Origin: Burkholderiales bacterium
Lineage (GTDB): Bacteria > Pseudomonadota > Gammaproteobacteria > Burkholderiales > Ga0077523
Direction: 5' to 3'
Assembly (NCBI GenBank): GCA_965279325.1
Contig: OZ257154.1
Coordinates: forward strand, 3,521,340-3,585,339
Length of the DNA: 64,000 nt
A model generated the notes under the pieces. That model was not told where the DNA came from. It was given only the letters and a program-made list of their open reading frames with translations, and ran no database searches. Below are positions 1 to 41,157 of the stretch, piece after piece (positions within the stretch are counted from its first letter, which is position 1; the number at the start of each line of letters is the position of its first letter). Position numbers and translations under genes: made by a program.

Positions 1-597
1 CGCTATTCGGTGCGCTGGGCGGGAGAGCGCACGGATCTCTCCGGCTTTCTTTCCGCCTTCCATAACATTCCCGGTGGCAACGACGGTGACCAGGCGACCT
101 TCGATCGATCGCGACCTGGTGCGAGTGCAACTTATACGCTGTATCGCTATGGCGCTTCCGTAACCCAGACCCTCCCGGCCGATATCCAGATACGGCTCTC
201 GGCCAATGCCCAATACACGAGCGAACCTCTGGTTTCGGGCGAACAGTACGGTATCGGCGGCATGGATTCGGTGCGCGGCTTCATCGAGCGCGAGATCGTC
301 AACGACCGCGGCAGCCGCGTCTCGCTCGAGCTCTTCAGCCCCGACTTCGGCAGCCGTCTCTTTGCCGGAGCCAATGCGCGCATGGTGGCCTTCGGCGACG
401 CAGCCCAGGTGTCGCGTGTGCGCCCGCTTCCCGGCGAGGTGGTGAACGAATCGATCAGCGGTGCCGGTGTCGGCTTGCGGGCGAACTACAAGGCGATGTT
501 CTCGCTGCGGCTGGACTATGGCGTCGTGATCCAGCCGGGTGGGCTCCAGAGTCGCGGTGACCAGCGCCTGCAGGGCGTTGCCGCGGTGTACTTCTGA
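1..597 (+). CDS. TpsB-type outer-membrane transporter (ShlB/FhaC/HecB family), C-terminal fragment; 5' end outside window
   Basis: Frame open from base 1. Contains GIGGMDSVRGF motif and a beta-barrel-like C-terminus ending in F (GVAAVYF*). Lies 10 nt upstream of a TPS-domain exoprotein gene. Confidence 0.85.
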   Translation, partial: RYSVRWAGERTDLSGFLSAFHNIPGGNDGDQATFDRSRPGASATYTLYRYGASVTQTLPADIQIRLSANAQYTSEPLVSGEQYGIGGMDSVRGFIEREIVNDRGSRVSLELFSPDFGSRLFAGANARMVAFGDAAQVSRVRPLPGEVVNESISGAGVGLRANYKAMFSLRLDYGVVIQPGGLQSRGDQRLQGVAAVYF

Positions 598-607
598 GGC
601 GATACGG

Positions 608-3600: not shown

Positions 3601-6600
3601 CAGCACCGCCACGCTGGGCAATCTGCAATCGCCTTCTGGCGTGATGCAGATTGGCACTAGCGGCGTGCTGACCAATACCGGCGAGACGCTGGCACTCGGT
3701 AGCGGACTGACCACCGCCTCGTTGCGGCTGGCGGGCGGTGCGATCAACGGTGGAACCATCACCACGGCCAATGGCGCGACCTTCACGCAACTGGGCAGCG
3801 GCACCAGCTACCTGAACGGCGTCACGCTGGGCACCGACTTCGTCGTCCCGTCCGGTGCAGTGCTGCGGGTGGATAGCGGCGACCTGAACCTGAGTGGGAC
3901 CAACCGCGTGCTGACGCTGCAGGGTGATATTTACCTGTATCAGCAGACCGGCACGCAGACCCTGGGCGGGACGGGCCGGATCGTGTTCGCCAACAATGGC
4001 GCGCAGATCTACGCGCCCTATGGCGGCAGCACGCAAGTGATCGGCCCCGGGATCACGCTCACGGGGACGACCAACGGGCAGTTCCAGAGCTGGGGCAACA
4101 TCCGCAACGAAGGAACGATCCGTTCGGAAGTGGCCGGCACGACGATCACGGTGACCAAGCAGAACACCGGTGGCACCAAGACGGTGAACGTCGGGCTGAT
4201 CGAAGCGGTGGCCGGGTCGGTAACCTTGAGCGGTGGTCCGTGGGAGAACGAAGACGGGGCGCTCAACGGCACCATCCGCGCGGGCGCGGCGGGCACGGTC
4301 AACCTCAATGGTGCGTTCAACACCGCCACGCTGGGCAACCTGCAGACCACCGGCGCGGGTGTGATGCAGCTGACGGCCAGCGGCTCGATCGCGAACACGG
4401 GCCAGACGCTGACCCTGGGTGGGACGGGGACTTCGGCTTCATTGCGGATCGCAGGCGGAGCGATCAACGGCGGCACTATCACCACGGCCAACGGTGCATC
4501 CCTCACACAGCTCGCTAGCGGCTACAGCTACCTGAACGACGTCACGCTGGACACCGACTTCACCGTCCCGGCGGGCGGGATCCTGCGCGTCGACAGCGGC
4601 GGTCTGACGTTGGCCGGTACCAATCGCACGCTCACGCTGGTCGGGGACATGTACCTGTACCAGCAGACGGGGACACAGACCCTGGGCGGTACCGGCCGGA
4701 TCGTGTTCGCCAACGCGGGCGCGCAGATCTACAGCAACTACGCCGGCAACACCGTGGTGGTGGGCCCGAACGTCACGGTGAGCGGCACTACCAACGGCGG
4801 CCTCCAGCTGTACAGCAACTTCCGCAACGAGGGGACGATCCGTTCGGAAGTGGCGGGCACGACGATCACGGTGACCAAGCAGAACACCGGCGGCACCAAG
4901 GCGGTGAACGTCGGGCTGATCGAAGCGGTGGCCGGGTCGGTAACCCTTAGCGGTGGTCCGTGGGAGAACGAAGACGGTGCGCTCAACGGGACGATCCGTG
5001 CCAACGGCGGCACGCTCAATCTGAACGGCGCGTTCAGTACCGCCACGCTGGGCAACCTGCAATCGCCCGGCGGCGTCCTGCAGATCAGCAGCAGCGGCAG
5101 TCTCGACAACACCGGCCAGACCCTCGCCCTGGGCAGCGGACTGACCACGGCGTCGCTGCGCCTGGCCGGTGGGGCGATCAACGGTGGAACCGTCACGGCG
5201 GCCAATGGCGCGACCTTCACACAGCTCGCCAGCGGTTACAGCTACCTGAACGACGTCACGCTGGACACCGATTTCACCGTCCCGGCGGGCGGTATCCTGC
5301 GCGTCGACAGCGGCGGTCTGACGTTGGCCGGCGCCAACCGCACGCTCACGCTGGCCGGGGACATGTACCTGTACCAGCAGACCGGAACGCAAACGCTCGG
5401 CGGCACGGGTCGCATCGTGTTCGCCAACGCGAATGCGCAGATCTACAGCAACTACACCAACAACACCGTGGTGGTGGGCCCGAACGTCACGGTGAGCGGC
5501 ACCACCAACGGCAGCTTCCAGCTGTACAGCAGCTTCCGCAACGAAGGGACGATCCGTTCGGAAGTGGCCGGCACGACGATCACGGTGACCAAGCAGAACA
5601 CCGGTGGCACCAAGGCGGTGAACGTCGGGCTGATCGAAGCGGTGGCCGGATCGGTAACCTTGAGCGGTGGTCCGTGGGAGAACGAAGACGGGGCGCTCAA
5701 CGGCACCATCCGCGCGGGCGCGGCGGGCACGGTCAACCTCAATGGTGCGTTCAACACCGTCACACTGGGCAACCTGCAGGCGACCGGCGCAGGCGTGATG
5801 CAGTTGTCGAGCGGCGGCTCGATCGCCAACACCGGCCAGACACTGACGCTGGGTGGCGCGGGAACCTCGGCGTCCCTGCGACTCGCCGGTGGCGCCATCA
5901 CCGGCGGGACGGTCGCGACGGTCAACGGTGCGAGCCTCACCCTGGCTGCGGGCACCAGCCGGATGAATGCGGTGACGCTGGCCACGGATCTGACCGTCCC
6001 CGTGGGATCGGTGCTGCAAGTGGACTCCGGCGATGTGACTCTGAGCGGGTCGAATCGGGTGTTGACGCTGCAGGGTGATATGTACCTGTACCAGCAGACC
6101 GGAACGCAGACCCTGGGCGGCACGGGCCGGATCGTGTTCGCCAACGCGGGCGCGCAGATCTACGCCAACTACACCAACAACACCGTGGTGGTGGGCCCGA
6201 ACGTCACGGTGAACGCAACCACCAACGGAGCCTTCTCGCTGTACAGCAACTTCCGCAACGAGGGGGCGATCCGTTCGGACGTGGCTGGCACCACGATCAC
6301 GGTGAACAAGTACGGCACCGGCACTTCGGAGAACGTCGGGTCGATCGTGGCCGACGGATCATCGGCCGTGGTGCTGAACGGCACCACCGCCACGCTCGAC
6401 AATACCGGCGGCACGATTCGCGCGAGCAATGGCGGGCGCATCGACATCAACACGACCATCGCCACGTCGGATCTCGGGACTCTCGATGCCACCGGCGGCA
6501 CGGTGCGCCTCATGAGCAGTGGCGTGCTCGACAACACGGGCGACACGTTCCAGCCGGGCGTGGACATGGCGGGCTCGCTCACCGTGGCCGGCGGCACGAT

Positions 6601-9600
6601 CCGCGGCGGCATCGTGCAGGACGACCCGGCGAATCCGGCCGCGCTCATCCTCGTCAACGGCACCTCGCCGAGGTTCGACAACGTCACGGTCGACTACGAC
6701 CTCGCACTGGCGGCCAACCAGTTGCTCTACGTGGACAACGGCAACCTCACGCTGGCGAACGGCCGGACGCTGACCATCGGATCCGCCGCCGGAGCCGCCT
6801 ACCTGTATTTCACGCAGAACGCCGCGCAGGAACTCAGGACCACCGCCGGCGGCTCGGCGCAAGTGTTGTTCGCCAATGCGTCCGGCACCAGTTACGTCTA
6901 CTCCAATTCCAGCACGCTCAGCCACCAGTTGACCATCCGGCCGGGCATCACGATCGGTGGCACCGGCGACGGTCTCGTCTACGCGCCCACGCTGGTCAAC
7001 GAGGGCACCATCCGCGCCGGAGCCACGGGCCAGAGCATCAATGTCCAGGCCTACTCGTTCGACAACCTGTCCGGCGGCCTGGTCGAAGCGGCGTCGGGCG
7101 GCTCGATCCTGTTCCAGAACTACGCCACGAGTGCCTCCGAGTTCACCAATGCAGGGACGATTCGCGCCGCGCCCGGTGGCACGGTCGAGCTCGACTACGG
7201 CACTTTCTCCGGCACCTTCCTGTCGTCGCTGACGAGTACCGGCGGAACGGTGGCCGTCGGCAGCGTGGTCGACAACACCAATCAGACGCTGACACTCGAC
7301 CCCGCTACCATCGGCAATCTGAACCTGTTCTCCGGCGGCACGATCCGCGGCGGCACGGTGACGAGCGTCGGCGGTGCAACGCTCACCATCCCGAACGCCG
7401 GTTCGATCACGCTCGACGGTGTGACGCTCGACACCGATCTGGTCGCGGCCGGCAACTCGACCATCTCCGTGCCCGGCACGCTCACGATCGTGGGTGGCCA
7501 CCGGCTATCGTTGGGCTCGGCGGGCACGTCGGCGACGCTCGTCTTCAATGGAGCCGCGGCCAACAGCCTGCTGCGCGGCGGCACCGGGACGGCCGAGGTC
7601 GCCTTCGCCTCCGGTACGGGCAGCAACCTTTATCACAACAGCGGCACGCTCGACATCGGTTCGGGTGTCCTGATCCATTCCACCGGCGGCAGCGGAACGA
7701 TCAACAACAACGGCCGGGTTTTCACCAACAGCGGCGAGATCGACGCGGACGTATCCGGCCAGACCATCAACCTCGTCGCGACCGGGATGACCAATAGCGG
7801 CCTGGTCGGCGCCTCGAACGGCGGCGTTCTCGCCCTGAGCGGTACGTTCAACCCGGCATCGCTCGGTGTATTCGATGCCAACGGAGGCACGGTCCGGATC
7901 GGAAGTTCGGCGATCTTCGACCTGCAAGGCGGCGTCTTCGCCATGACTGCCGCAACCGGCGGCGTCGAACTCTCCGCCGGCACGATCCGTAACGGCACCT
8001 TGCGCGATGCCGGCGCCGCCATGACGGTCGGTCCGTCCTCCGGAACGCTCGACGGCGTGACGCTCGACCAGAATCTCACGCTCGCGAGCCGGAATCTCAA
8101 CGTTCCGAACGGTCTCGCGATCCAGGGCGGACGCACCGTCAACCTCGAAGGCGGCGGCGTGCTGACGCTCACGGGTACCGGCGTCGCCCGCGCGATCACC
8201 CGTGGAGGCAGCGGCACGGCGGAGATCGTGCTCGGCAACGGCGCGATCAGCGCCAACAACACCGGCACGCTGACATTGGGGCAAGGGTTGCTCGTGCGCT
8301 CGGGTGCCAACGGCAACGGGTCGATCGGTAGCGGCAACACGACCGCACTCATCAATCAGGGCACGATCGCCGTCGACCAATCCGGCCGCTCCATTTCGCT
8401 GTTCGCGAACGCGACCGGATCGATCGACAATCAGGGGCTGATCCGCGTCGTGCAGGGCGCGTCCCTGTCCACGACCGGCCATGCTCTCGTCAACAACAAC
8501 ACGGCGGTCGGCGGCGGATTGCAGATCGGCGGCACGATCACGCTGGGCACGGGTATCACGCTCACCAACAACGGGCGATTCGGCCCGGGCAATTCGCCGG
8601 GCCTGGCGACGATCAGCGGCAATCTCGTGCTCGGCACCAACAGCGTCCTCGATATCGAAGTCGAAGGGCTCGCGCGCGGCACGCAATACGACGCGATCGA
8701 CGTCACGGGGACGGCCACCCTCGGCGGCGCGGTCAATGTCATCCGGTTCGGGGCCTACACGGAGACCGCCGGCGATATCCTGCGGGTCGTGACCGCGCAG
8801 GCTCTGTCCGGCAATTTCCGATCGGTCACGGGCACCGCCACGTGGACGGTGCAAACAGACGTGCGCAACGCGTTCCTGCAAGCGATCAGCAGCGATCCGA
8901 TTCTTCTCTGGACCCTCAACGGTTCCGGGGCCTGGACGACGGCAGCCAACTGGAACCTCAATCGAGTTCCGACGGCCACGGACATCGTGCTGATCGATCA
9001 ACCGGGCACGATCAACGTCGCATTGTCCTCCGGTGCCTTGGCGGCGCGACGCCTGTTCGCGTTCGACGGCGTCACGATCAACGGCGCGACGCTGACGCTC
9101 GCCGGGTCGTCGTTCGTGGGAGCGGGATCGTCGTTCGCGCTGTCCAGCGGCGGACTCGGCGGTGCCGGCGACCTCACGTTGACGGGCGCGTCCACCTGGA
9201 GCGGTGGTGTCCTGAGCGGCGGCAGCGCGTTGCGTCTCGCCTCCGGCGCCGTACTGACCGCCAGCGGCAACTCTGCCACTACGCAGCTCGCGGGTCGCAC
9301 GCTGGAGATCCAGAGCGGTGCGAGCGCGACCTTCAACGGCGAGATCGAATCCGAGCCCGGCACCAGCGTGATCAACAATGCCGGCACGCTGACCTTGGCG
9401 GGCACGCGGCTGAGCCACATCTATAACGCCAGCGGCACGATCACGGTGAACAACACCGGGACGGTCAACAAGACCGGCGCCGGCGTCTACGACCTGGGCA
9501 CCGACTTCAACAACGACGGTACCGTGAACATCCAGGGCGGGACACTGCGCCTGGCTGGCTCCGGCACCAGCAACGGCGTCGTTGCGATCGGCGGCAACGT

Positions 9601-12600
9601 GCTCGAACTGGCCGGCGGTACCCAGACGCTCACCAGCGCTTCGAACCTCTCGGGCAGTGGAACGCTACGCACCAGCGGCGGCAGTCTGGTCGTGAACACC
9701 ACCACACCGAACTTCAGCTTCAACGGCACGGTGCAGACCAGCAGCGGCAGTGCGAGCTTTGCACCGTCGATGACCCTGTCGCAGCTCACGTTGAGCGGTG
9801 GTACGACGACCTTCAATGCTGCGGTGAGCACGCCACGGCTGACCCAGAGCGGCGGTACGCTCGCCGGCGCAAGTACGCTCACGCTGAGCGGTCCCGGCTC
9901 CACCTGGAGCGGTGGCACGTGGAGCGGTGGTGGCCGCGTGGTGCTGAACACCGGGACCGATCTCGTGGCCAGCGGCAACTCTGCTACTACGCAGCTTGCG
10001 GGTCGCACGCTGGAGATCCAGAGCGGCGCGAGCGCGACCTTCAACGGCGAGATCGAATCCGAGCCCGGGACGAGCGTGATCGCCAACGCCGGCACGCTGA
10101 CCCTGGCGGGAACGCGGCTGAGCCACATCTACAACGCCAGCGGCACGATCACGGTGAACAACACCGGCACGATCAACAAGACCGGCACGGGCACCTACAG
10201 CCTTGGCGCCAATCTGAACAACGACGCGGTGTTGAATGTCCTCGCCGGCAATCTCACGAACGACGGCAATGGGACCAGCACGGGCGATCTCGATATCGCC
10301 GCCTCGGCGACCTATCAGCACGCCGGCGGAACGCAGACGTTGACCAACGCATCCGGCGTGACCGGCGTCGGCGAGTTGCTGGTGTCCGGCGGTACCTTGG
10401 CGGTGAACACGCCGACTGCCGGATTCGCGCATACGGGCGTCATCCGGAACACCGGCGGACTGGCGAGTTTCGCCGCGAATCTCACGCCGTCGCACGTGGC
10501 TCTCTCCGGCGGTACGACGACCTTCAACGGCAGCGTCATCACGCCGTTGCTCAGTCAGAGCGGCGGCACGCTTGCAGGCGGGAGTCTGGTGACGCTGACC
10601 GGCGCCGGATCGACCTGGACCGGTGGAACGTGGACCAGCAACGGCACCGTGCGCCTGAACCCGGGTGCATCGTTGACCGCCAATGGCAGCTCCGCCACCA
10701 CGCAGCTTGCGGGTCGCACGCTGGAGATCCAGAGCGGTGCGAGCGCGACCTTCAACGGCGAGATCGAATCCGAGCCCGGTACGAGCGTGATCGCGAATGC
10801 CGGCACGCTGACCCTGGCGGGCACGCGGCTGAGCCACATCTACAACGCCAGCGGCACGATCACGGTGAACAACACCGGCACGATCAACAAGACCGGCGCC
10901 GGCGTTTACGATCTGGGCACCGACTTCAACAACGACGGTACCGTGAACATCCAGGGCGGGACACTGCGCCTGGCCGGCTCCGGCGCCAGCAACGGTACCT
11001 TCGCGATCGGCGGCAGCGTCCTCGAGCAAGCCTTCGGGACGCAGACCTTCACCAGCGCCTCGAGCCTCTCGGGCAGCGGGACGCTGCGCACCAGCGGCGG
11101 CAGTCTCGTGGTCAACACCACCACAGCGAACTTCGGCTTCTCCGGTACGGTACAGACCAGCAACGGCAGTGCGAGCTTCGCCCCGTCGATGACCCTGTCG
11201 CAGCTCACGTTGAGCGGTGGTACGACGACCTTCAATGGCGCGGTGAGCACGCCGCAGTTGACGCAGAGCGCGGGCGTGCTCGCGGGCGCGAGCGTAGTGA
11301 CGCTCACTGGTCCCGGCTCCACCTGGAGCGGCGGTACGTGGACGGGCAACGGCACCGTTCGTCTCGCCTCCGGCGCCGTACTGACGGCGAGCGGCAGCAC
11401 CGCCAGCACGCAGTTGGCCGGTCGCACGCTGGAGATACAGAACGGTGCGAGCGCGATCTTCAACGGCGAGATCGAATCCGAACCCGGCACGAGTGTGATC
11501 AACAACGCCGGGACGCTGACGCTGGCCGGCACGCGGCTGAGCCACGTCTACAACGCCAGCGGCACGATCACGGTGAACAACACCGGGACCATCGAGAAGA
11601 CCGGTACGGGCGCCTACATCCTTGGCGCCAACCTCAACAACAACCAGACCGGTGATATCAACGCGTCCGGGACCCTCGTGCTCGCCGGTGGCACGCTCAC
11701 CAATGCCGGCACCCTGCGCCCGGCGGGTGCCGGCACCATCGGCACGCTCAATCTCGGCGGAAACTTCGTGCAAACCGGCACGGGCGTGATCGAGATCGAG
11801 ACGATCGGTACCGCGCCGGGCGATTCGGACGTGCTCGCCGTGTCGGGCAACGCGGCATTGGGTGGATTGCTGGAACTGGTCGCCATCAACGGCTACACGC
11901 CATCCGGCGCGAGTGCGTACGCCGACGTTCTCACCTACGCATCCCGTACCGGAGCCTTCGAAGCCGTCGGTGGCGCGGCATTCCCGGCGCTTACCCCGAC
12001 CTACGGAGCCAACGGCCTCACGATCGCGATCACCACCGGTGGCTCCATCGTGTGTCCCACCGGCTTCAGCGTGTGCTGGATCGGCACTTCGGATGGCAGC
12101 TGGAACGATACCGCGCAATGGAACACCGGCGCAGTGCCAACGGCAACGGACGATGTGTACGTGGCGGCGCCCGGCAGCATCACCATTACTGCGGCGAACG
12201 GCGGCGCCGTGAATCGACTCGTGAGCGAAGAGAGCTTCCTCCTGGCCGGTGGGACGTTCTTGCTCAACGGCGCATCGTCCGTCGGTCAGACACTGGCGAT
12301 CACGGGCGGTATCTTGCAGGCTAACGCAAACCTGGCGGCTGGATCGATCACCCTCAATGGTGGCGCGCTCAACGTCGGGGCTGGCGCGACGGTGTCCATC
12401 GCGAACCAGTTCGCATGGTCGGGGGGGGGCATCAATGGTGCGGGCACCAGCTCGGTGCTGCAGATCGCCGCGCCCGCCACCGTGAATGTGAGTGGCGCAA
12501 CGAAGGCGTTGGTCAACGTCGCCGTTGTCAACGCCGGCCAGATGAATCTGGGCCTCAGCACGAACAGCATGCTGCAGTTGAACGACGGTGCGTCAATTTC

Positions 12601-15600
12601 GAACAGCGGGACGCTCACGTTCACCGAGACCAACGCGATCGGTAGCGTGTCGGGCTCGGGCAGCCTCACCAATACCGGCACCATCGCTGCCGCCGCGAGC
12701 CGCACGGGCACCGTCCAGTCGACCACGTTCGCCAACAACGGCGGAACGCTGCAGGCGAGCGCGGTGGGCTCTTCGCTGCAGATGCGTTCCGCGTCGAGCA
12801 GCTACAGTGGTACGACGACCGTCGCTGGTACCGGTGTCCGGTTCGATGGCGGGGCACACACGTTCAGCGACGGCGCGACGGTCACGGGCCAGGTGAACCA
12901 GTCCAGCGCCATCACGTTCAATTCGACGGCCATCAACGGAACGTGGAACCAGTCTGGAGGTTCCACCAGCATCGCGGCGGGTGATACGTTGACGTTGAAC
13001 GGCACGGCGAACTGGTCCGGCGGCGGTATCTTCGGTGCGGGGCCAGGCGCAGCGCTCGCGCTTACCACGGGCGACGTGCTGAACGTGAGCGGCGCGACGC
13101 GCGGCTTGACCAATGTCGCCCTGACCAATGCCGGCCAGGTGAACGTCGGGCTCGACACCAACGGCATGCTGCAGCTGAACGACGGTGCCTCGATCGCGAA
13201 CAGCGGCGCACTCACTTTCGCGGAGACCAACGCCATCGGTACCGTTTCCGGGTCGGGCAGCTTTGCCAATGCCGGGACGATCGCCGTGGCCGCCGGCCGG
13301 ACCGGCACGGTCGAATCCACGAGCTTCAGCAATGGTGGCGGAGCCCTGCAGACGGGCTCCGGGTCGGTCCTGCGGATGCGCTCCGGGAACAGCAGCTACT
13401 CCGGCGCAACGACGATCACCGGTACCGGAGTGCAATTCGACGCGGGGACGCACACGTTTGCCGATGGCGCCAGTGTCGTCGGCCAGTTCAATCAGGCAAC
13501 GAACATCGTCTACGGCGACACGGTGCTGGCCGGTGTCTGGAACCTGAGCGCCGGCACGGCCTTGCTGGGTGCCGGCAAGACAATCACGTTGAACGGTACG
13601 GCCAATTGGTCAGGTGGCGGTATCGTCGGCTCGGGACCCACCTCGGCTCTCGCACTGTCCTCGGGCGACACGCTCAACATCACAGGTAGCACCAAGGCGC
13701 TGACCAACGCTCGTGTCGATGCGGGTCCCGGCTCCGCCGTGAACGTGGGCCTGAACACCAATGGAATGCTGCAGTTGAACGACGGTGCGTCGATCACGAA
13801 CAGTGGGACGCTCACGTTCACCGAGACCAACGCGATCGGTAGCGTGTCGGGCTCGGGCAGCCTCACCAATACCGGCACCATCGCTGCCGCCGCGAGCCGC
13901 ACGGGCACCGTCCAGCCGACCACCTTTGCCAACAACGGTGGAACGCTGCAGGCAAACGCGGCTGGCTCCTCGCTCCAGCTGCACTCGGGTTCGAGCAGCT
14001 ACAGTGGCACCACCACGCTCAACGGTACCGGCGTGCAGTTCAGCAGCGGCACCCACAGCTTCGCCGACGGTGCGAGCGTGAACGGCGTGCTGAACCAGTC
14101 TGCCAATCTCGTCTTCGGTACCGTTGCGCTCAACGGCACGTGGAACCAGTCGGGTGGCAACGCCCTGATCGACGCCAACGACACGCTCAGCGTCAACGGC
14201 ATCGTCAACTGGTCCGGCGGCGGCATCGTGGGCAGCGGTGGCTCCTTGCTGCAGGTCGCAGCGCCGGCGCGGTTCAACATGAGCGGGGCGACACGCGCAC
14301 TCACCAATGTGGCACTGGTGAATGCCGGAGTGATGAACCTCGGCCTGAACACCAACGCCGTGCTGCAGTTGAACGATGGGGCGTCAATCGCCAATGCGAG
14401 TACGTTCACTTTCGTCGAAACCAACGCTATCGGCACCGGCTCCGGATCGGGCAGCTTCGTCAACAATGGAACGTTGACGACGGTTGCCGGCGTGGCCGGA
14501 ACCGTGGGCAGCACGTCGTTCACCAACGCAGGTCTGGTGCGGGCCGCCGCCAACGCGAGCGTGGCGCTGCAGGCGGGCGGAACGCACACCGGTGCGTTCG
14601 AAGCGGACACCGGCGGCACCGTGGCATTCAGCGGCGGAACCCACAACCTGGGCGACGGCAGCCGCCTCACCAACGGACTGGTTCAAGTGAACGGGGGCAG
14701 CTTGAATCTCGTCGGGACCGGCGCCGGAACGCTGATACCGGTGGGTGCCGTCGTGTCATTGAGCGGTCAGACACTCGGCGGTTCAGGACTCCTGGACAAC
14801 CGGGGTACCCTCAATCTCGGCAACAGCACCGTCGCGGGCAGCGTGACCAATACCGGGACGTTGAACGTGACCGGCTCCAGCGCCGTCAACGGCGCGCGCT
14901 TCGACCAGAACAACGGAATCCTGTTGCTCAACGCGGGCTCGACGCTGACCAAGAACAGCGGCGTCTTCGCGTGGAACGGCGGTACGCTCGGCGGTCCCGG
15001 CACGCTGACCATGGCGAATGGAGCGTTGTTCGACATCGCAGGAACCGGCGCCCGCGTGCTCGACGGTCCGACGCTCAACATCGGCGGTCTCGGTCTGCAG
15101 GCCGGCTCGCTCGAAGTGCGCTCGGGGAGCCTCACCACCGCCGGCATCTCCACCATCGTGTCCGGCGCGACGCTCGTCCTCAATGGTGGCACCTTCAACA
15201 ACACCGCGCCCATGACTGTCGCGGGCACACTCGATCTGCGGACCGGCAGCCTTGCGCTCAACGGCGACGCGAGCCATACCGGCAGCTTCCTGCTCGGATC
15301 CGGGACGACGCTCGCTTTTGCATCCGGAATCCAGACGCTCACCGGACCGCTGTCGGGCAACGGCACGGTGGTGGTGTCCGGTGCGACGGTGACGTCGACT
15401 GGGTCCTATTCCGCGGCCACCACCAACGTCTCCGGCGGGACGCTCGCACTGAACGGCGCCGCGCAATCCCAGATCGTCAACGTGGGCCAGGGCGGAACGT
15501 TGGCGACAGGCGGAACCGTCACGTTCACGTCGCTCAACGTCAGCGGCGGGACTGTCGATGCGCAAGGCACCCTGAACGCCACCAATCTGTCGGTGGGGTC

Positions 15601-16513
15601 GGGTGCGGTGAACGGCGCTGGAACGGTGAACGTCGCGAACTTCACGCAATCCGGTGGCAGCGTGGACGGCACCGGCACTTTCAACGTGACCAACCGCTAC
15701 AACGCGACCGGCGGTTCGCTCGGCACCCGCTGGCGTGTGATGGCCATCACGCACACGCAGGGTGACCTCGTGTTGAATCGGGTGCACGCGGCGGGTACGA
15801 CGTCGGTCAGCGTGAGCAACGGCGCCCTGCGGGTCGTGGCGCTCGGCAGTCGCGCCGGTATCAGCGGCAGTACCGGCGTGACGGTGAACGCGTCGGGCGA
15901 CCTGGTATTGCAGGGCGGTTCCGGCGAGGGGGCGAGCGCCTTCGTGCAGTCCGGTGGCGGACCCTGCACGATCAACGTCGGCGGTACCACGCGACTGATC
16001 GGCGGGACCGGACCAAGCTCCAATGCCTTCATCAACGGCACTCCCGATGTCGGCAGCTTCGCGCAGCCGATCCGGCTCGCGGGACCGATCGAATTCATCG
16101 ACGGCTCGGGCGGTACGGCGCAGGTGCAGTCTTTCTCGCCGAGCAGCGTGTACGTGAACTTCCCGACCTTGAGTTCGGGCGGCTACACCGTCAACGGCGT
16201 CGAGGTGACATCTGCTGGATCGTCGGGATTCTTCGCGGGCGGCGCGCCTGCAGTGTTGAACAGCAATCTGTTCATCACGTACGGAGCGCTAGTGGTGCCG
16301 CCACCGCCACCACCACCACTCGGAGGTGGCACGTTGCAGCTTCCACTACTGACCGGAGCGCTCGAAGGCGGACCGTTAGCCACCAACGTGGTGGTTACCG
16401 CATCGGAACGTGGTCTGCTGTTCAACTTCCCAGAACCGCCGAAACCCGCTCTCGGCCCGGGTAGCCAAGGCGTGGTCGGAACCGAACGCCGGAGCATTCC
16501 ACAATGTCGATAG
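608..16513 (+). CDS. Giant two-partner-secretion exoprotein (TpsA / filamentous-haemagglutinin-like), 5,301 aa
   Basis: ATG at 608 verified in sequence (ORF track opens at 539). Signal peptide MSRRREFRPTTLAVALAACFPIASIG. TPS domain with QVLNRVIGGDPSQILG...QVFLINPNGIVFG, then GGFIETSG...WLIDPNNITIV. Remainder is Gly/Thr/Asn/Ser-rich beta-helix-like repeats. Confidence 0.92.
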   Translation: MSRRREFRPTTLAVALAACFPIASIGNPLDPAVVVGGATFQTQGNTLTVTNAPGTVINWQSFSIGQDEVTRFIQQSAASQVLNRVIGGDPSQILGTLQSNGQVFLINPNGIVFGVGAQVDVAGLVVSSLGITNADFLSGRLSFASGATAGSIRNDGTLRAVDGGSIYLIAPSIENHGIVAAPDGSVVLAAGKTATLMDSNRPFVQVEITAGGEAINVGQLVASNVGIYAGAVRVSGTVEATHAVMDESGRIRFAATGDTTITADGVVKADGASGGEVRIESGGTTLVDGKITANGSSGTGGTIVLLGAQVGLREESFVDASGLRGGGSVFVGGGVRGMDPTLPKASRTYVAPGAIVRADAQERGDGGRIVVWGDQFAGVHGALSARGGAVGGNGGFIETSGGSLVVSSTPDVTAPAGVGGTWLIDPNNITIVAGTGFTGINNVNPFASTVDGAQLGVTLIRNALTGGANVTITTGAGGSQAGDIVWSTGAALDYNGSGTNSLTLSAHNSITLSSNISDSNATTTDRLNLTLTPNSDGVGGGGVTVMASTVLDLKGGLLQVNGGGGITFANGSTLSNATLQAGAVTLNSGSIYFNGIALATDLTVPSGTTLRVDSGDLTLSGANRTLTLAGDMYLYQQTGTQTLGGAGRIVFASSGATIYSPYGGSTQVIGSGITLTGTTNGQFQSWGNFRNEGIIRSEVAGTTITVTKQNTAGTRAVNVGLIEATAGSVTLGGGPWENEDGPTNGTIRANGGTLNLNGAFSTATLGNLQSPSGVMQIGSGGVLTNTGQTLALGSGLTTASLRLANGAITGGTITTANGATFTQLGSGTSYLNGVTLGTDFVVPSGAVLRVDSGDLNLSGTNRVLTLQGDIYLYQQTGTQTLGGTGRIVFANNGAQIYAPYGGSTQVIGPGITLTGTTNGQFQSWGNIRNEGTIRSEVAGTTITVTKQNTGGTKAVNVGTIEATAGVVTLAGGSWENEDGALNGTIRSAGGTMNLTGGFSTATLGNLQSPSGVMQIGTSGVLTNTGETLALGSGLTTASLRLAGGAINGGTITTANGATFTQLGSGTSYLNGVTLGTDFVVPSGAVLRVDSGDLNLSGTNRVLTLQGDIYLYQQTGTQTLGGTGRIVFANNGAQIYAPYGGSTQVIGPGITLTGTTNGQFQSWGNIRNEGTIRSEVAGTTITVTKQNTGGTKTVNVGLIEAVAGSVTLSGGPWENEDGALNGTIRAGAAGTVNLNGAFNTATLGNLQTTGAGVMQLTASGSIANTGQTLTLGGTGTSASLRIAGGAINGGTITTANGASLTQLASGYSYLNDVTLDTDFTVPAGGILRVDSGGLTLAGTNRTLTLVGDMYLYQQTGTQTLGGTGRIVFANAGAQIYSNYAGNTVVVGPNVTVSGTTNGGLQLYSNFRNEGTIRSEVAGTTITVTKQNTGGTKAVNVGLIEAVAGSVTLSGGPWENEDGALNGTIRANGGTLNLNGAFSTATLGNLQSPGGVLQISSSGSLDNTGQTLALGSGLTTASLRLAGGAINGGTVTAANGATFTQLASGYSYLNDVTLDTDFTVPAGGILRVDSGGLTLAGANRTLTLAGDMYLYQQTGTQTLGGTGRIVFANANAQIYSNYTNNTVVVGPNVTVSGTTNGSFQLYSSFRNEGTIRSEVAGTTITVTKQNTGGTKAVNVGLIEAVAGSVTLSGGPWENEDGALNGTIRAGAAGTVNLNGAFNTVTLGNLQATGAGVMQLSSGGSIANTGQTLTLGGAGTSASLRLAGGAITGGTVATVNGASLTLAAGTSRMNAVTLATDLTVPVGSVLQVDSGDVTLSGSNRVLTLQGDMYLYQQTGTQTLGGTGRIVFANAGAQIYANYTNNTVVVGPNVTVNATTNGAFSLYSNFRNEGAIRSDVAGTTITVNKYGTGTSENVGSIVADGSSAVVLNGTTATLDNTGGTIRASNGGRIDINTTIATSDLGTLDATGGTVRLMSSGVLDNTGDTFQPGVDMAGSLTVAGGTIRGGIVQDDPANPAALILVNGTSPRFDNVTVDYDLALAANQLLYVDNGNLTLANGRTLTIGSAAGAAYLYFTQNAAQELRTTAGGSAQVLFANASGTSYVYSNSSTLSHQLTIRPGITIGGTGDGLVYAPTLVNEGTIRAGATGQSINVQAYSFDNLSGGLVEAASGGSILFQNYATSASEFTNAGTIRAAPGGTVELDYGTFSGTFLSSLTSTGGTVAVGSVVDNTNQTLTLDPATIGNLNLFSGGTIRGGTVTSVGGATLTIPNAGSITLDGVTLDTDLVAAGNSTISVPGTLTIVGGHRLSLGSAGTSATLVFNGAAANSLLRGGTGTAEVAFASGTGSNLYHNSGTLDIGSGVLIHSTGGSGTINNNGRVFTNSGEIDADVSGQTINLVATGMTNSGLVGASNGGVLALSGTFNPASLGVFDANGGTVRIGSSAIFDLQGGVFAMTAATGGVELSAGTIRNGTLRDAGAAMTVGPSSGTLDGVTLDQNLTLASRNLNVPNGLAIQGGRTVNLEGGGVLTLTGTGVARAITRGGSGTAEIVLGNGAISANNTGTLTLGQGLLVRSGANGNGSIGSGNTTALINQGTIAVDQSGRSISLFANATGSIDNQGLIRVVQGASLSTTGHALVNNNTAVGGGLQIGGTITLGTGITLTNNGRFGPGNSPGLATISGNLVLGTNSVLDIEVEGLARGTQYDAIDVTGTATLGGAVNVIRFGAYTETAGDILRVVTAQALSGNFRSVTGTATWTVQTDVRNAFLQAISSDPILLWTLNGSGAWTTAANWNLNRVPTATDIVLIDQPGTINVALSSGALAARRLFAFDGVTINGATLTLAGSSFVGAGSSFALSSGGLGGAGDLTLTGASTWSGGVLSGGSALRLASGAVLTASGNSATTQLAGRTLEIQSGASATFNGEIESEPGTSVINNAGTLTLAGTRLSHIYNASGTITVNNTGTVNKTGAGVYDLGTDFNNDGTVNIQGGTLRLAGSGTSNGVVAIGGNVLELAGGTQTLTSASNLSGSGTLRTSGGSLVVNTTTPNFSFNGTVQTSSGSASFAPSMTLSQLTLSGGTTTFNAAVSTPRLTQSGGTLAGASTLTLSGPGSTWSGGTWSGGGRVVLNTGTDLVASGNSATTQLAGRTLEIQSGASATFNGEIESEPGTSVIANAGTLTLAGTRLSHIYNASGTITVNNTGTINKTGTGTYSLGANLNNDAVLNVLAGNLTNDGNGTSTGDLDIAASATYQHAGGTQTLTNASGVTGVGELLVSGGTLAVNTPTAGFAHTGVIRNTGGLASFAANLTPSHVALSGGTTTFNGSVITPLLSQSGGTLAGGSLVTLTGAGSTWTGGTWTSNGTVRLNPGASLTANGSSATTQLAGRTLEIQSGASATFNGEIESEPGTSVIANAGTLTLAGTRLSHIYNASGTITVNNTGTINKTGAGVYDLGTDFNNDGTVNIQGGTLRLAGSGASNGTFAIGGSVLEQAFGTQTFTSASSLSGSGTLRTSGGSLVVNTTTANFGFSGTVQTSNGSASFAPSMTLSQLTLSGGTTTFNGAVSTPQLTQSAGVLAGASVVTLTGPGSTWSGGTWTGNGTVRLASGAVLTASGSTASTQLAGRTLEIQNGASAIFNGEIESEPGTSVINNAGTLTLAGTRLSHVYNASGTITVNNTGTIEKTGTGAYILGANLNNNQTGDINASGTLVLAGGTLTNAGTLRPAGAGTIGTLNLGGNFVQTGTGVIEIETIGTAPGDSDVLAVSGNAALGGLLELVAINGYTPSGASAYADVLTYASRTGAFEAVGGAAFPALTPTYGANGLTIAITTGGSIVCPTGFSVCWIGTSDGSWNDTAQWNTGAVPTATDDVYVAAPGSITITAANGGAVNRLVSEESFLLAGGTFLLNGASSVGQTLAITGGILQANANLAAGSITLNGGALNVGAGATVSIANQFAWSGGGINGAGTSSVLQIAAPATVNVSGATKALVNVAVVNAGQMNLGLSTNSMLQLNDGASISNSGTLTFTETNAIGSVSGSGSLTNTGTIAAAASRTGTVQSTTFANNGGTLQASAVGSSLQMRSASSSYSGTTTVAGTGVRFDGGAHTFSDGATVTGQVNQSSAITFNSTAINGTWNQSGGSTSIAAGDTLTLNGTANWSGGGIFGAGPGAALALTTGDVLNVSGATRGLTNVALTNAGQVNVGLDTNGMLQLNDGASIANSGALTFAETNAIGTVSGSGSFANAGTIAVAAGRTGTVESTSFSNGGGALQTGSGSVLRMRSGNSSYSGATTITGTGVQFDAGTHTFADGASVVGQFNQATNIVYGDTVLAGVWNLSAGTALLGAGKTITLNGTANWSGGGIVGSGPTSALALSSGDTLNITGSTKALTNARVDAGPGSAVNVGLNTNGMLQLNDGASITNSGTLTFTETNAIGSVSGSGSLTNTGTIAAAASRTGTVQPTTFANNGGTLQANAAGSSLQLHSGSSSYSGTTTLNGTGVQFSSGTHSFADGASVNGVLNQSANLVFGTVALNGTWNQSGGNALIDANDTLSVNGIVNWSGGGIVGSGGSLLQVAAPARFNMSGATRALTNVALVNAGVMNLGLNTNAVLQLNDGASIANASTFTFVETNAIGTGSGSGSFVNNGTLTTVAGVAGTVGSTSFTNAGLVRAAANASVALQAGGTHTGAFEADTGGTVAFSGGTHNLGDGSRLTNGLVQVNGGSLNLVGTGAGTLIPVGAVVSLSGQTLGGSGLLDNRGTLNLGNSTVAGSVTNTGTLNVTGSSAVNGARFDQNNGILLLNAGSTLTKNSGVFAWNGGTLGGPGTLTMANGALFDIAGTGARVLDGPTLNIGGLGLQAGSLEVRSGSLTTAGISTIVSGATLVLNGGTFNNTAPMTVAGTLDLRTGSLALNGDASHTGSFLLGSGTTLAFASGIQTLTGPLSGNGTVVVSGATVTSTGSYSAATTNVSGGTLALNGAAQSQIVNVGQGGTLATGGTVTFTSLNVSGGTVDAQGTLNATNLSVGSGAVNGAGTVNVANFTQSGGSVDGTGTFNVTNRYNATGGSLGTRWRVMAITHTQGDLVLNRVHAAGTTSVSVSNGALRVVALGSRAGISGSTGVTVNASGDLVLQGGSGEGASAFVQSGGGPCTINVGGTTRLIGGTGPSSNAFINGTPDVGSFAQPIRLAGPIEFIDGSGGTAQVQSFSPSSVYVNFPTLSSGGYTVNGVEVTSAGSSGFFAGGAPAVLNSNLFITYGALVVPPPPPPPLGGGTLQLPLLTGALEGGPLATNVVVTASERGLLFNFPEPPKPALGPGSQGVVGTERRSIPQCR
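2288..6590 (+). repeat. Coding tandem repeat family A: six copies, period 714-720 bp (238-240 aa), inside tpsA
   Basis: YLYQQTGTQTLGG landmark (TAC codon) at 2504, 3218, 3932, 4652, 5366, 6083. Copies 2 and 3 are almost base-identical over more than 400 bp (about 3070-3480 vs 3785-4195). Three degenerate units follow to about 8400. Confidence 0.9.
9190..11660 (+). repeat. Coding tandem repeat family B: four copies, period 708-711 bp (236-237 aa), inside tpsA
   Basis: GGGTCGCACGCTGGAGATCCAGAGCGG landmark at 9292, 10000, 10711, about 11419. Peptide TQLAGRTLEIQSGASATFNGEIESEPGTSVI.NAGTLTLAGTRLSHIYNASGTITVNNTGT recurs four times. Confidence 0.9.
12330..14680 (+). repeat. Coding tandem repeat family C: four copies, period 594-600 bp (~199 aa), inside tpsA
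   Basis: ATGCTGCAG(T/C)TGAACGA landmark at 12569, 13166, 13766, 14360. Peptide NWSGGGI...MLQLNDGASI.NSG.LTF.ETNAIG.VSGSGS recurs. Copies 1 and 3 share a near-identical stretch of about 150 bp. Confidence 0.9.
12421..12429 (+). repeat. G9 homopolymer inside the tpsA reading frame
   Basis: Read directly: ...gcatggtc ggggggggg catc..., encoding W-S-G-G-G-I. The same motif in the other three family-C units is encoded TGGTC(C/A)GG(C/T)GGCGG(T/C), without a run. Confidence 0.95.
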
Positions 16514-17859
16514 TGTCCAGGACGCGGATCGTCGCGGTGGCAGTACTGTGCCTGTGGACGGTGGCCGGCCATGCCGCCGAACCCGCCGCGCGTGCATCAG
16601 GCGTGAGCGGTGTGGTCATCATCGAACGGGCGGCGGGCGGCGTGAAGTTCGCCGCAGATGGCACTGCACTCGAGACGGGCGACACGCTGCGCACGGAAGC
16701 GGCCAGCCAGACTCGGCTCGATTTCGCCGACGGCACCCAGGTGTTGTTGCGCCCGCAGTCCGTGTTCAAGGTCGAGAAGTACCGCTACAACGAGGCGAAG
16801 CCGCAGGAGGACGGGGCGCTGCTGCGCCTGCTCAAAGGCGGCCTGCGAACCGTCACGGGCCTGATGGGCAAGCGACGACCGGATGCATTCCAGCTCGGCG
16901 CCGGCACCGCGACGATCGGTATCCGCGGCACCGATTTCGTCGTCCGCATGTGCACCGACGATTGCGTCGCCGAGACGAAGGTGGCGGCCAAGACGGATCT
17001 GCCCCCGTTGCCAAGCTTCGCGGGACGGGTGATGAGTGTGCAGGGCCGGCTCCAGGTGGATCGAGGGGCCGGACCGCGGCCGCTGGCGGCAGGCGAGACT
17101 TTCTACGGCGGCGACACTCTGATCACGGCACCGTCCGCGCTGGCAGTCATCCTGTTTCGCGACGGCATGCGCGTCGTGCTCAAGGCCGACACGAAATTCC
17201 TCGTGGACACATTCCGCTACGAAGCCGCGAATCCGGAGCGCGGCAACGCGATCCTGCGCCTGCTCAAGGGCAGCCTGCGCGCGGTGACCGGTCTCGTCGC
17301 CCAGCGCAACCCGTCGCAGGTGCAGTTCGGTACTTCGGTAGCGACCATCGGCATCCGCGGTACGGGATTCGATCTGCGCTGTACCGGACCGTGCGCGAGC
17401 GAGGCGCCGGTCGCCTCGGACGAACTCGACGGACTGGCGGCTTACACCTGGAAGGGCTGCACGACGATGCTGACCGAGCAGGGCAACCTCGATCTGTGCG
17501 AGGGGCAGGCCGGTCAGGTTTCCGGCCCGGGCAAGGCACCGCGCAAGTTCGATGCGGTGCCGCGCTACTTCCTCGACGACAAGTCACCCCGGCCGGACGC
17601 GATCGATGGCGATCCGGATACGGTGTTCGGTCCGCAGAAGCAGGACTTCTCTTCCGCGGGCACTTACGTCTACGTCCGGGATGGCGCCGTCGTGCTGCGG
17701 GGTGGCGGTACGGAACAGGGCCTCGCGCGTGGCGAGGTCGGGTATCTCGATCAGAACGGGCGGTTTTCGCGCCTGCCCACGCCCCCGCTATTTATCGATC
17801 GCGATCCGGTGCTGCGTCACATGGATACCGACGCGAGCATGAGTTGCAGCGTGCCGTGA
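16504..17859 (+). CDS. Periplasmic protein with two tandem FecR-like domains, 451 aa
   Basis: Signal peptide MSIVSRTRIVAVAVLCLWTVAGHAAEP. Internal duplication: GDTLRT..RLDFADGTQVLL..LLRLLKGGLRTVTGL..ATIGIRGTDF and GDTLIT..VILFRDGMRVVL..ILRLLKGSLRAVTGL..ATIGIRGTGF. Start overlaps the tpsA stop by 10 nt. Confidence 0.8.
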   Translation: MSIVSRTRIVAVAVLCLWTVAGHAAEPAARASGVSGVVIIERAAGGVKFAADGTALETGDTLRTEAASQTRLDFADGTQVLLRPQSVFKVEKYRYNEAKPQEDGALLRLLKGGLRTVTGLMGKRRPDAFQLGAGTATIGIRGTDFVVRMCTDDCVAETKVAAKTDLPPLPSFAGRVMSVQGRLQVDRGAGPRPLAAGETFYGGDTLITAPSALAVILFRDGMRVVLKADTKFLVDTFRYEAANPERGNAILRLLKGSLRAVTGLVAQRNPSQVQFGTSVATIGIRGTGFDLRCTGPCASEAPVASDELDGLAAYTWKGCTTMLTEQGNLDLCEGQAGQVSGPGKAPRKFDAVPRYFLDDKSPRPDAIDGDPDTVFGPQKQDFSSAGTYVYVRDGAVVLRGGGTEQGLARGEVGYLDQNGRFSRLPTPPLFIDRDPVLRHMDTDASMSCSVP

Positions 17860-41002: not shown

Positions 41003-41157
41003 TCAGCCCTCGCCGGGCCTGCCATCGACCGGAGGCCGATGGCCTTCGGAAGGCACAGACAGTCCGCAGGGACTGTCTGTGTCCGGCCTCAGTCCGCAAG
41101 AGGGCTGGCCCCCCGGGGGGAGAGGCCGCAAGGCCTATCGGGGGGAACGTCACCTCA
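41003..41157. repeat. REP-like GC-rich intergenic element, copy 2 (with ~75-bp internal insertion)
   Basis: Shares both ends with 24129-24207. Extra segment includes the perfect palindrome CACAGACAGTCC-GCAG-GGACTGTCTGTG (about 41054-41081). Confidence 0.8.

What the first reader, a model, noticed from the sequence alone, without database searches (positions are those of the whole stretch)
12421..12429. In-frame G9 homopolymer in tpsA: candidate slipped-strand ON/truncated switch
Seen: W-S-G-G-G-I is encoded TGG TCG GGG GGG GGC ATC, giving nine consecutive G. The equivalent motif in the three sister units uses TCC/TCA GGC/GGT GGC GGT codons with no run. Both alternative frames hit stops quickly: the ORF-track alternative-frame ORFs end at 12485 and 12645. 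Established: G/C tracts of 8 or more are classical contingency-locus switches in surface proteins. Inference: a +/-1 slip would yield a secreted product of about 3,950 aa that lacks family C and the C-terminal region.
Basis: partly seen in the sequence, partly recalled or inferred. Interest (0 to 1): 0.62.

Follow-up and report, generated by a model that had tools for sequence, protein, structure and literature searches.

The report
Lone G9 run inside giant tpsA
A run of nine G's really does sit in frame inside a 5,300-residue secreted fibre-protein gene and could occasionally slip to give a truncated protein, as a G10 run does in the whooping-cough fhaB gene, but nothing here shows that it varies or was selected as a switch.

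Summary
G9 lies at 12421-12429, read TGG TCG GGG GGG GGC ATC (W-S-G-G-G-I). It is in frame in an intact 5,301-aa (ATG 608) two-partner-secretion exoprotein gene. This gene follows a tpsB 3' end and precedes a FecR-domain gene. The run is the only homopolymer of 7 or more in 64 kb. G8 stops at 12483-12485 (3,958 aa). G10 stops at 12643-12645 (4,012 aa). Either loses the ~200-aa family-C repeats and a conserved beta-helix plus proline-rich C-terminus.

Whether it is a switch remains untested. The gene strongly avoids G/C runs (1 run of 6 or more against 9.2 expected), so the tract stands out. Chance expectation is still not negligible: 0.02 per gene under a 2nd-order Markov model, 0.2 under synonymous shuffling. 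That implies several such runs per genome.

Three syntenic orthologues (~65% aa identity) read TCG AAC GGA AGC, with no run. No same-species sequence was found in any collection, so length polymorphism could not be checked.

The closest precedent is the B. pertussis fhaB G10 tract, which varies G9/G10/G11 and is also absent from sister species. Verdict: a plausible but unproven slippage hotspot, probably young. If real, it is a new member of a known kind. Interest is low to moderate.

The parts
12421..12429 (+). G9 mononucleotide run, in frame (tcG GGG GGG GGc), encoding part of S-G-G-G in the W-S-G-G-G-I motif
608..16513 (+). tpsA: giant two-partner-secretion exoprotein gene. It is 5,301 aa from ATG 608; the mechanical ORF starts at GTG 539 and gives 5,324 aa. 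The TPS domain covers ORF residues 63-290. The tract lies 74% of the way along the gene.
1..597 (+). 3' end of tpsB (ShlB/FhaC/HecB Omp85-type transporter), cut by the window edge. It ends ...AAVYF*.
12483..12485 (+). TGA stop reached after a -1 slip (G8). Product: 3,958 aa from ATG 608, with a 20-residue out-of-frame tail.
12643..12645 (+). TAG stop reached after a +1 slip (G10). Product: 4,012 aa from ATG 608.
13013..13030 (+). Sister W-S-G-G-G-I motif, coded TGG TCC GGC GGC GGT ATC, with no run
13607..13624 (+). Sister W-S-G-G-G-I motif, coded TGG TCA GGT GGC GGT ATC, with no run
14210..14227 (+). Sister W-S-G-G-G-I motif, coded TGG TCC GGC GGC GGC ATC, with no run
12310..14905 (+). Family-C tandem array of ~200-aa (~597-600 nt) units. 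There is a partial first unit that carries the tract, three full units 60-71% identical to each other, and one degenerate unit. Boundaries are approximate. All but the first ~40 residues would be lost after a slip.
15308..16510 (+). Unique C-terminal region. It is a confident beta-helix (pLDDT > 90) for ~250 residues, then a disordered proline-rich tail ending in the conserved ...ERRxIxQCR. It is conserved in orthologues and would be lost after a slip.
16504..17859 (+). FecR-domain protein gene. It overlaps the tpsA stop by 10 nt and is syntenic in all orthologous loci.

Best explanation
The G9 is a real, in-frame mononucleotide run in an intact, expressed-looking tpsA gene, and the assembled sequence is the full-length (ON) state. 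It arose in this lineage by G-ward substitutions. Positional orthologues read TCG AAC GGA AGC where the window reads TCG GGG GGG GGC. The run sits in a motif that has become W-S-G-G-G-I in all four family-C units of this organism.

Physically, it is the one site in the gene where slipped-strand mispairing during replication should produce reversible +/-1 frameshifts far more often than elsewhere. G8 gives a 3,958-aa product and G10 a 4,012-aa product. Both keep the TPS secretion domain and about 74% of the beta-helix fibre. Both lose the family-C repeats, the terminal beta-helix and the conserved proline-rich C-terminus.

Most likely it is a young hypermutable site, unselected or only weakly selected, at the lower length limit for instability. 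It is a candidate phase-variable site, not a demonstrated or conserved contingency switch.

Shown: the tract, its frame, the stops, the gene's identity, the absence of the tract in orthologues, and the conservation of the region that would be lost. Inferred: that slippage occurs at a measurable rate, that the truncated products are secreted, and that the run is young.
For: - Tract, frame and stops.
- Genuine TPS system: TPS domain PF05860 with E = 6.6e-32, and a tpsB 3' end matching PF03865.
- The frame after the tract is the real one. It continues into three sister units and a C-terminus that are 50-75% identical to L001, the same range as upstream of the tract.
- Positional orthologues (synteny tpsA-fecR-orf218-M48 peptidase-DAO) carry TCG AAC GGA AGC, with no run.
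- The gene otherwise avoids runs: 1 against 9.2 expected runs of 6 or more, and GGG followed by a Gly codon 4 times against 20.5 expected. A run here is therefore unusual and probably recent.
- Precedent in Burkholderiales at similar GC: fhaB G10 varies G9/G10/G11 in all 49 isolates tested, with loss of FHA.
- The BP3651 tract is stable at G8 but mixed G9/G10 within single colonies.
- The fhaB tract is 3 and 2 G's in sister species.
Against: - No length variation was observed, because no second sequence of this species exists in any collection searched.
- G9 is the minimum of the range considered unstable.
- The organism probably has mismatch repair, which lowers slippage rates. A uvrD gene is in the window, but mutS and mutL were not seen.
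- Some Bordetella tracts that passed the length threshold were invariant in 90 strains.
- Chance alone gives such a run in 2-20% of comparable genes, depending on the null model.
Confidence: 0.55

Rival explanations
1. Evolved contingency locus. The G9 is maintained by selection as a reversible switch between a full-length TpsA and a truncated, differently behaving fibre that lacks family C and the C-terminal tail.
For: - The tract is the only exception in a gene that otherwise avoids G/C runs.
- Five substitutions, all towards G, separate it from the orthologous codons.
- It lies in a surface or secreted protein gene, and both shifted frames stop quickly.
- There is a direct precedent in fhaB.
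- The region that would be lost is conserved and resembles, in layout only, the FhaB prodomain with its proline-rich region and conserved extreme C-terminus. Deleting those in FhaB changes behaviour without abolishing secretion.
Against: - The tract is absent in all three positional orthologues.
- There is a single tract of minimal length, and no other long tract in 64 kb.
- It lies at 74% of the gene, so it gives truncation rather than ON/OFF.
- Relatives are environmental or bioreactor metagenome-assembled genomes (MAGs), not host-restricted pathogens where contingency loci are typical.
- Genome-wide, several such runs are expected by chance.
Confidence: 0.2
2. Inert chance run. It is a by-product of a Gly-Gly-Gly motif plus codon drift in a 17%-glycine protein. 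It is effectively stable in a repair-proficient cell and has no biological consequence.
For: - Synonymous shuffling gives a run of 9 or more in 20% of shuffles.
- The protein has 921 Gly residues and 17 GGG tripeptides.
- The S-G-G-G peptide motif is shared by four units, so the amino acids are explained without invoking the tract.
- Orthologues lack the run.
- Some Bordetella tracts are invariant.
Against: - Homopolymer indel rates rise steeply with run length in every bacterium examined (and the studies cited there).
- G9 was visibly unstable in Bordetella.
- The strong avoidance of runs in the rest of the gene implies that runs do carry a cost, meaning they do mutate.
Confidence: 0.19
3. 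Programmed recoding at the RNA or ribosome level. G GGG GGG would act as a -1 slippery heptamer, or RNA polymerase would slip on the run. Either would give a constant fraction of truncated product without any DNA change.
For: G_GGG_GGG formally fits the X_XXY_YYZ pattern in the zero frame. The -1 frame terminates 20 codons later.
Against: - The 91 nt downstream fold no better than shuffled sequence (z = -0.09), so there is no stimulatory structure.
- From established knowledge, G-only heptamers are poor shifters, and transcriptional slippage is characteristic of A/T runs.
- The site is not conserved in orthologues.
Confidence: 0.03
4. Sequencing or assembly artefact. The true tract length differs, or the consensus hides a mixed population.
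For: Homopolymers are the commonest site of length miscalls on several sequencing platforms (established knowledge).
Against: - The assembled length keeps a 5,301-aa frame open.
- That frame continues into homologous repeats and a conserved C-terminus. A +/-1 error would have broken it.
- An error of exactly +/-3 is unlikely.
Confidence: 0.03

Closest known systems
Homopolymeric G10 tract in Bordetella pertussis fhaB (PMC7446907; Gogol et al. 2007, PMC1891110)
   Same: - It is an in-frame poly-G run inside a giant TpsA (filamentous haemagglutinin type) gene of a ~67% GC member of the Burkholderiales.
- A +/-1 slip leads to early stops.
- The tract is species-specific: 10 G's in B. pertussis but 3 and 2 in its sister species. 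Here likewise the orthologues have no run.
- The length is just above the threshold of 8 found for Bordetella.
   Different: - The fhaB tract is G10 at nt 1078-1088 of 10,773, about 10% into the gene, so a slip abolishes FHA. Here G9 lies 74% into the gene, so a slip would leave a 3,958- or 4,012-aa product that still carries the TPS domain.
- fhaB variation is demonstrated by LDR (ligase detection reaction), whole-genome sequencing, western blot and in vivo selection. Here nothing is demonstrated.
- The present protein matches no FHA repeat Pfam family and comes from an unidentified, probably environmental betaproteobacterium.
Coding-region homopolymeric tracts in other Bordetella surface-protein genes (tcfA, bapC, BP0059; Gogol et al. 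2007)
   Same: C/G runs inside genes for exported or cell-envelope proteins, where length changes truncate or restore the ORF.
   Different: Those tracts were genotyped in 90 strains, and some were shown to vary within one culture. Others of similar length (BP0880, bhuR) were invariant. That shows length alone does not predict behaviour.
FhaB C-terminal prodomain (proline-rich region plus conserved extreme C-terminus; Melvin et al. 2015, PMC4542190)
   Same: [quoted passage not shown] In FhaB, removing these does not prevent production or release of the fibre but does change biological function. The region lost after a slip here has the same general layout.
   Different: No sequence similarity to FhaB was tested or shown. 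Here most of the lost region is predicted beta-helix like the rest of the fibre. In FhaB, removal is proteolytic and regulated, not genetic.

Membership tests
Two-partner secretion (type Vb) TpsA exoprotein | N-terminal TPS secretion domain | tested here: met
   PF05860 with E = 6.6e-32 and 111.8 bits (cut-off 33.5), ORF residues 63-290. 1,166 database relatives with E <= 1e-20, those that carry a name being annotated as filamentous hemagglutinin N-terminal or two-partner secretion domain proteins.
Two-partner secretion (type Vb) TpsA exoprotein | Cognate Omp85-type TpsB transporter gene adjacent | tested here: met
   The partial ORF at 1-597 matches ShlB/FhaC/HecB PF03865 (E = 4.5e-14) and Omp85, and ends in ...VYF. 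Its 5' part lies outside the window.
Two-partner secretion (type Vb) TpsA exoprotein | Long beta-helical passenger | tested here: met
   An AF2 model of the last 401 aa has pLDDT > 90 over ~250 residues of regular beta-strand coils. The only weak PDB neighbours are beta-solenoids, none significant. The rest of the protein was not modelled.
Phase-variable (contingency) locus by slipped-strand mispairing | Simple-sequence tract above the instability threshold, placed so that length changes alter expression or product | tested here: met
   G9 is in frame, and both +/-1 frames stop within 20-75 codons. It exceeds the >8 threshold derived for Bordetella.
Phase-variable (contingency) locus by slipped-strand mispairing | Tract-length polymorphism between strains or within a population | not testable with these tools
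   No same-species sequence and no reads. Three protein searches, the genome and metagenome scans, and four exact-protein look-ups found relatives no closer than 77% aa identity, and that one is a 596-aa fragment that does not reach the tract.
Phase-variable (contingency) locus by slipped-strand mispairing | High-frequency, reversible switching with a phenotypic or protein-level read-out | not testable with these tools
   Requires culture, amplicon sequencing and western blot.
Phase-variable (contingency) locus by slipped-strand mispairing | Tract longer or more frequent than composition predicts (a signature of selection) | tested here: inconclusive
   Expected runs of 9 or more: 0.021 per gene and 0.058 per window under a 2nd-order Markov model; 0.21 per gene under synonymous shuffling. 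The gene otherwise avoids runs. This is one window only, so no genome-wide excess can be computed.
Phase-variable (contingency) locus by slipped-strand mispairing | Tract present at the orthologous site in relatives | tested here: not met
   L001, L002 and L005 read TCG AAC GGA AGC, and their synteny is confirmed. This is not a strict defining feature, since the proven fhaB tract also fails it.
Programmed -1 ribosomal frameshift site | Slippery heptamer followed by a stimulatory RNA structure, conserved in relatives | tested here: not met
   The heptamer is formally present, but the downstream fold has z = -0.09 and the site is absent in orthologues.

The most novel reading that the evidence does not exclude
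The G9 is a selected genetic switch in a non-pathogenic, environmental betaproteobacterium. It would toggle a giant TpsA fibre between two forms. One is the full-length form, whose conserved proline-rich C-terminus acts like the FhaB prodomain in retention or maturation control. The other is a 'prodomain-less' 3,958- or 4,012-aa form that is released or behaves differently. That would achieve by DNA slippage what Bordetella achieves by regulated proteolysis.
Probability: 0.1. Interest if true: 0.5.

Novelty: new member of a known kind. Interest (0 to 1): 0.27.

Why it matters
If the tract does vary, it would extend homopolymer-driven phase variation of TpsA fibres beyond Bordetella to an uncultured or environmental Burkholderiales lineage. 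It would also be an example of a late-gene tract that changes the protein's C-terminal architecture rather than switching it off. That could be used to probe what the conserved C-terminus of this uncharacterised TpsA family does. If the tract does not vary, it is simply a rare codon coincidence in a glycine-rich protein. Either way the mechanism is already known, and the finding opens no long-standing question.

Tried and rejected
1. Protein search with the 350 aa around the tract found nothing at E <= 1e-10. The 8,000-candidate word filter was saturated by low-complexity Gly/Thr words.
2. Protein search with the N-terminal 431 aa gave only partial proteins of 77% identity or less, on short contigs that do not reach the tract.
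3. Protein search with the C-terminal 450 aa gave one distant hit at 35% identity.
4. The genome contigs and metagenome-contig scans returned only three orthologous loci at ~66% identity. Two of these are the same population.
5. Exact-protein look-ups of four neighbouring genes (FecR, DAO with two alternative starts, and the 218-aa ORF), meant to find same-species contigs, found nothing on record.
It was rerun with the window sequence plus P0121.
7. A Foldseek PDB search of the C-terminal model gave no significant match. A toxin or enzymatic C-terminal domain of the CdiA kind is therefore not supported, and Pfam also found nothing there.
8. Programmed frameshifting was considered and rejected. 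There is no downstream structure and the site is not conserved.
9. Recent gene conversion from sister units as the origin of the run was rejected. The sister units use different codons.
10. Whole-protein self-BLAST returned only the self-hit, so it was replaced by chunked queries.
Full report
**Observation**

Window positions 12421-12429 are nine consecutive G's flanked by C on both sides. They lie in the frame of a 5,324-codon ORF (539..16513) as TGG TCG GGG GGG GGC ATC = W-S-G-G-G-I. The likely start is ATG 608, just after the upstream gene's stop at 597. That gives 5,301 aa and puts the tract at nt 11,814 of 15,903, which is 74% of the gene.

Removing one G leads to a TGA at 12483-12485 (3,958 aa from ATG 608). 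Adding one G leads to a TAG at 12643-12645 (4,012 aa). They use TCC/TCA and GGC/GGT codons without any run.

**What the gene is**

The ORF has an N-terminal TPS secretion domain (PF05860, E = 6.6e-32). The truncated ORF at the left edge of the window is the C-terminal part of a ShlB/FhaC/HecB Omp85 transporter (PF03865). A FecR-domain protein gene overlaps the tpsA stop by 10 nt. This is a two-partner secretion locus.

The passenger is built from three tandem repeat families:
- about six units of 714 nt (2369-6660);
- four units of about 708 nt (9191-12000);
- a family of about 597-600 nt that begins around the tract.

The tract lies in a partial first unit of this last family ('family C'). 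Three full units follow, 60-71% identical to each other, and then a degenerate one.

The last 401 aa were modelled as a confident beta-helix for ~250 residues, followed by a disordered proline-rich tail. There was no significant PDB neighbour and no Pfam domain. There is thus no toxin-like C-terminal domain. The protein looks like an adhesin-type fibre.

The rest of the window carries polA, uvrD, leuS, gatB and a TonB-dependent receptor. The locus is therefore chromosomal.

**Is the run more than chance?**

The run is the only homopolymer of 7 or more in 64 kb. Three null models were used.
- A 2nd-order Markov model predicts 0.058 G/C runs of 9 or more in the window and 0.021 in tpsA.
- Extrapolating the window's own run-length spectrum gives 0.066 per window.
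- Permuting synonymous codons within tpsA, which keeps the 17%-glycine protein, gives at least one run of 9 or more in 20% of shuffles.

The same shuffles predict 9.2 runs of 6 or more, where the real gene has one, the tract itself. GGG codons are followed by another Gly codon 4 times against 20.5 expected, and two of those four are the tract.

The gene is therefore strongly run-averse and the G9 is its lone exception. In absolute terms, however, a multi-megabase genome of this composition is expected to contain several such runs. The statistics alone do not show selection for the tract.

**Comparison with relatives**

No sequence of the same species exists in any collection I could search. 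The best protein relative is 77% identical over the N-terminus and sits on a 2.6-kb contig. Two other protein searches found nothing useful. Four exact-protein look-ups of neighbouring genes found nothing.

The genome and metagenome scans gave three loci at ~66% identity over the 500 aa around the tract:
- L001, a Burkholderiales MAG;
- L002, a Betaproteobacteria MAG;
- L005, a metagenome contig 99.98% identical to L002.

They are positional orthologues. The genes for tpsA, the FecR protein, the 218-aa ORF, an M48 peptidase and a DAO oxidoreductase follow in the same order at 67-81% aa identity.

At the tract site all three read TGG TCG AAC GGA AGC (W-S-N-G-S), with no run. Their sister units read W-S-N-G-N-I or W-S-G-G-N-I. 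The W-S-G-G-G-I motif in all four units is thus a feature of the window's lineage. The run required five substitutions, all towards G. None of these loci has a homopolymer of 7 or more.

The region downstream of the tract is as conserved against L001 (50-75% per 150 aa) as the region upstream (46-77%). The conserved extreme C-terminus (...ERRxIxQCR) is also shared. The full-length frame is therefore the functional, selected state, and the assembly shows ON.

**Mechanism**

Established knowledge says that mononucleotide runs mutate by slipped-strand mispairing at rates that rise steeply with length (and the studies cited there).

The best calibrated comparison is Bordetella, which belongs to the same order and has similar GC.
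- C/G tracts longer than 8 are over-represented there.
- The BP3651 tract was stable at G8, but G8/G9 or G9/G10 mixtures arose within single colonies.
- The fhaB gene, itself a giant tpsA, carries a G10 at nt 1078-1088. It was a G10/G9 or G10/G11 mixture in all 49 clinical isolates examined. The mix correlated with FHA level, and mutant alleles were enriched in the lungs of vaccinated mice.
- That fhaB tract is only 3 and 2 G's in B. bronchiseptica and B. parapertussis.

Conversely, several Bordetella tracts that met the length threshold were invariant in 90 strains. Length alone does not prove a switch either.

I therefore regard the G9 as a physically plausible slippage hotspot at the lower limit of instability. 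It is most likely young, and unselected or weakly selected (0.55). Two main rivals remain: a selected contingency switch (0.2) and an effectively inert chance run (0.19). Programmed ribosomal or transcriptional slippage is unlikely. There is no downstream structure (z = -0.09) and no conservation. An assembly artefact is also unlikely, because the frame is intact and continues into homologous, conserved sequence.

**Consequence of a slip (inferred)**

Both frameshift products keep the signal peptide, the TPS domain and about 3,940 aa of fibre. From established TpsA biology, N-terminal fragments that carry the TPS domain are exported by TpsB, so the products should still be exported.

They would lose about 1,340 aa: the family-C units, the terminal beta-helix and the proline-rich conserved tail. 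In FhaB, deleting the proline-rich region and the conserved extreme C-terminus left FHA production and release unchanged but abolished persistence in the lower airway. By analogy only, truncation here could change retention or maturation rather than abolish the protein. No sequence relationship to the FhaB prodomain was tested.

**Comparison with the known, and novelty**

The mechanism, and even the gene class (poly-G in a tpsA), are already documented in B. pertussis. What differs is the late position of the tract, which gives truncation rather than ON/OFF. The host also differs: it is uncharacterised, probably environmental, and belongs to a TpsA subfamily with no FHA-type Pfam repeats. If real, this is a new member of a known kind.

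The key defining features of phase variation are length polymorphism and reversible switching. Neither could be tested here.

**Verdict**

Interest is 0.27. The tract is a reasonable target for a quick read pile-up check, but not a surprising finding.

Noticed in passing
L002:4870-4880 versus L005:4717-4748: The MAG contig L002 and the metagenome contig L005 are 99.98% identical. L002 lacks about 31-34 bp near the 3' end of the tpsA orthologue. The deletion lies between short CTTC-type repeats and is not in a homopolymer. It frameshifts the last ~100 residues, so L002 ends ...GFFASSPTVLCLRHPHRRRIHLYK* instead of the conserved ...ERRPISQCR*. This is either a natural C-terminal truncation variant in that population or an assembly artefact.
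   Followed up: partly
window 608-16513: tpsA strongly avoids G/C homopolymers. It has 1 run of 6 or more against 9.2 expected from synonymous shuffling, and GGG codons are followed by a Gly codon 4 times against 20.5 expected. This suggests selection against slippage-prone runs in this Gly-rich gene.
   Followed up: yes
window 2369-6660 and 9191-12000: There are long tandem direct repeats inside tpsA: six units of ~714 nt, some pairs 91-96% identical over 300 nt, and four units of ~708 nt at 85% identity. They are in-frame substrates for recombinational gain or loss of units. The orthologue L001 appears to have fewer of the ~708-nt units. This is probably a more potent source of length variation than the G9.
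   Followed up: partly
window 16504-17859 (+), and L001, L002, L005: A FecR-domain protein gene overlaps the tpsA stop by 10 nt and is conserved at 78% aa identity in the same position in all orthologous loci. A 218-aa ORF with an HExxH motif on the opposite strand and an M48-type peptidase gene follow it. The tpsB-tpsA-fecR arrangement looks like a conserved operon of unknown function.
   Followed up: partly
window 16200-16510: The TpsA C-terminus has a PPPPPPP stretch and a conserved terminal motif, ERR(S/P)I(P/S)QCR. The terminal I..C(R/K) is shared even with a 35-39%-identical protein (P0121). The last ~115 residues are predicted to be disordered. The layout recalls the FhaB proline-rich region plus extreme C-terminus, but homology was not tested.
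   Followed up: partly
window 41109-41145: An intergenic C6G6 palindrome (ggccccccggggggagaggccgcaaggcctatcgggggg) with a nearby G6. It is probably a hairpin or terminator-like element and is unrelated to the finding.
   Followed up: no
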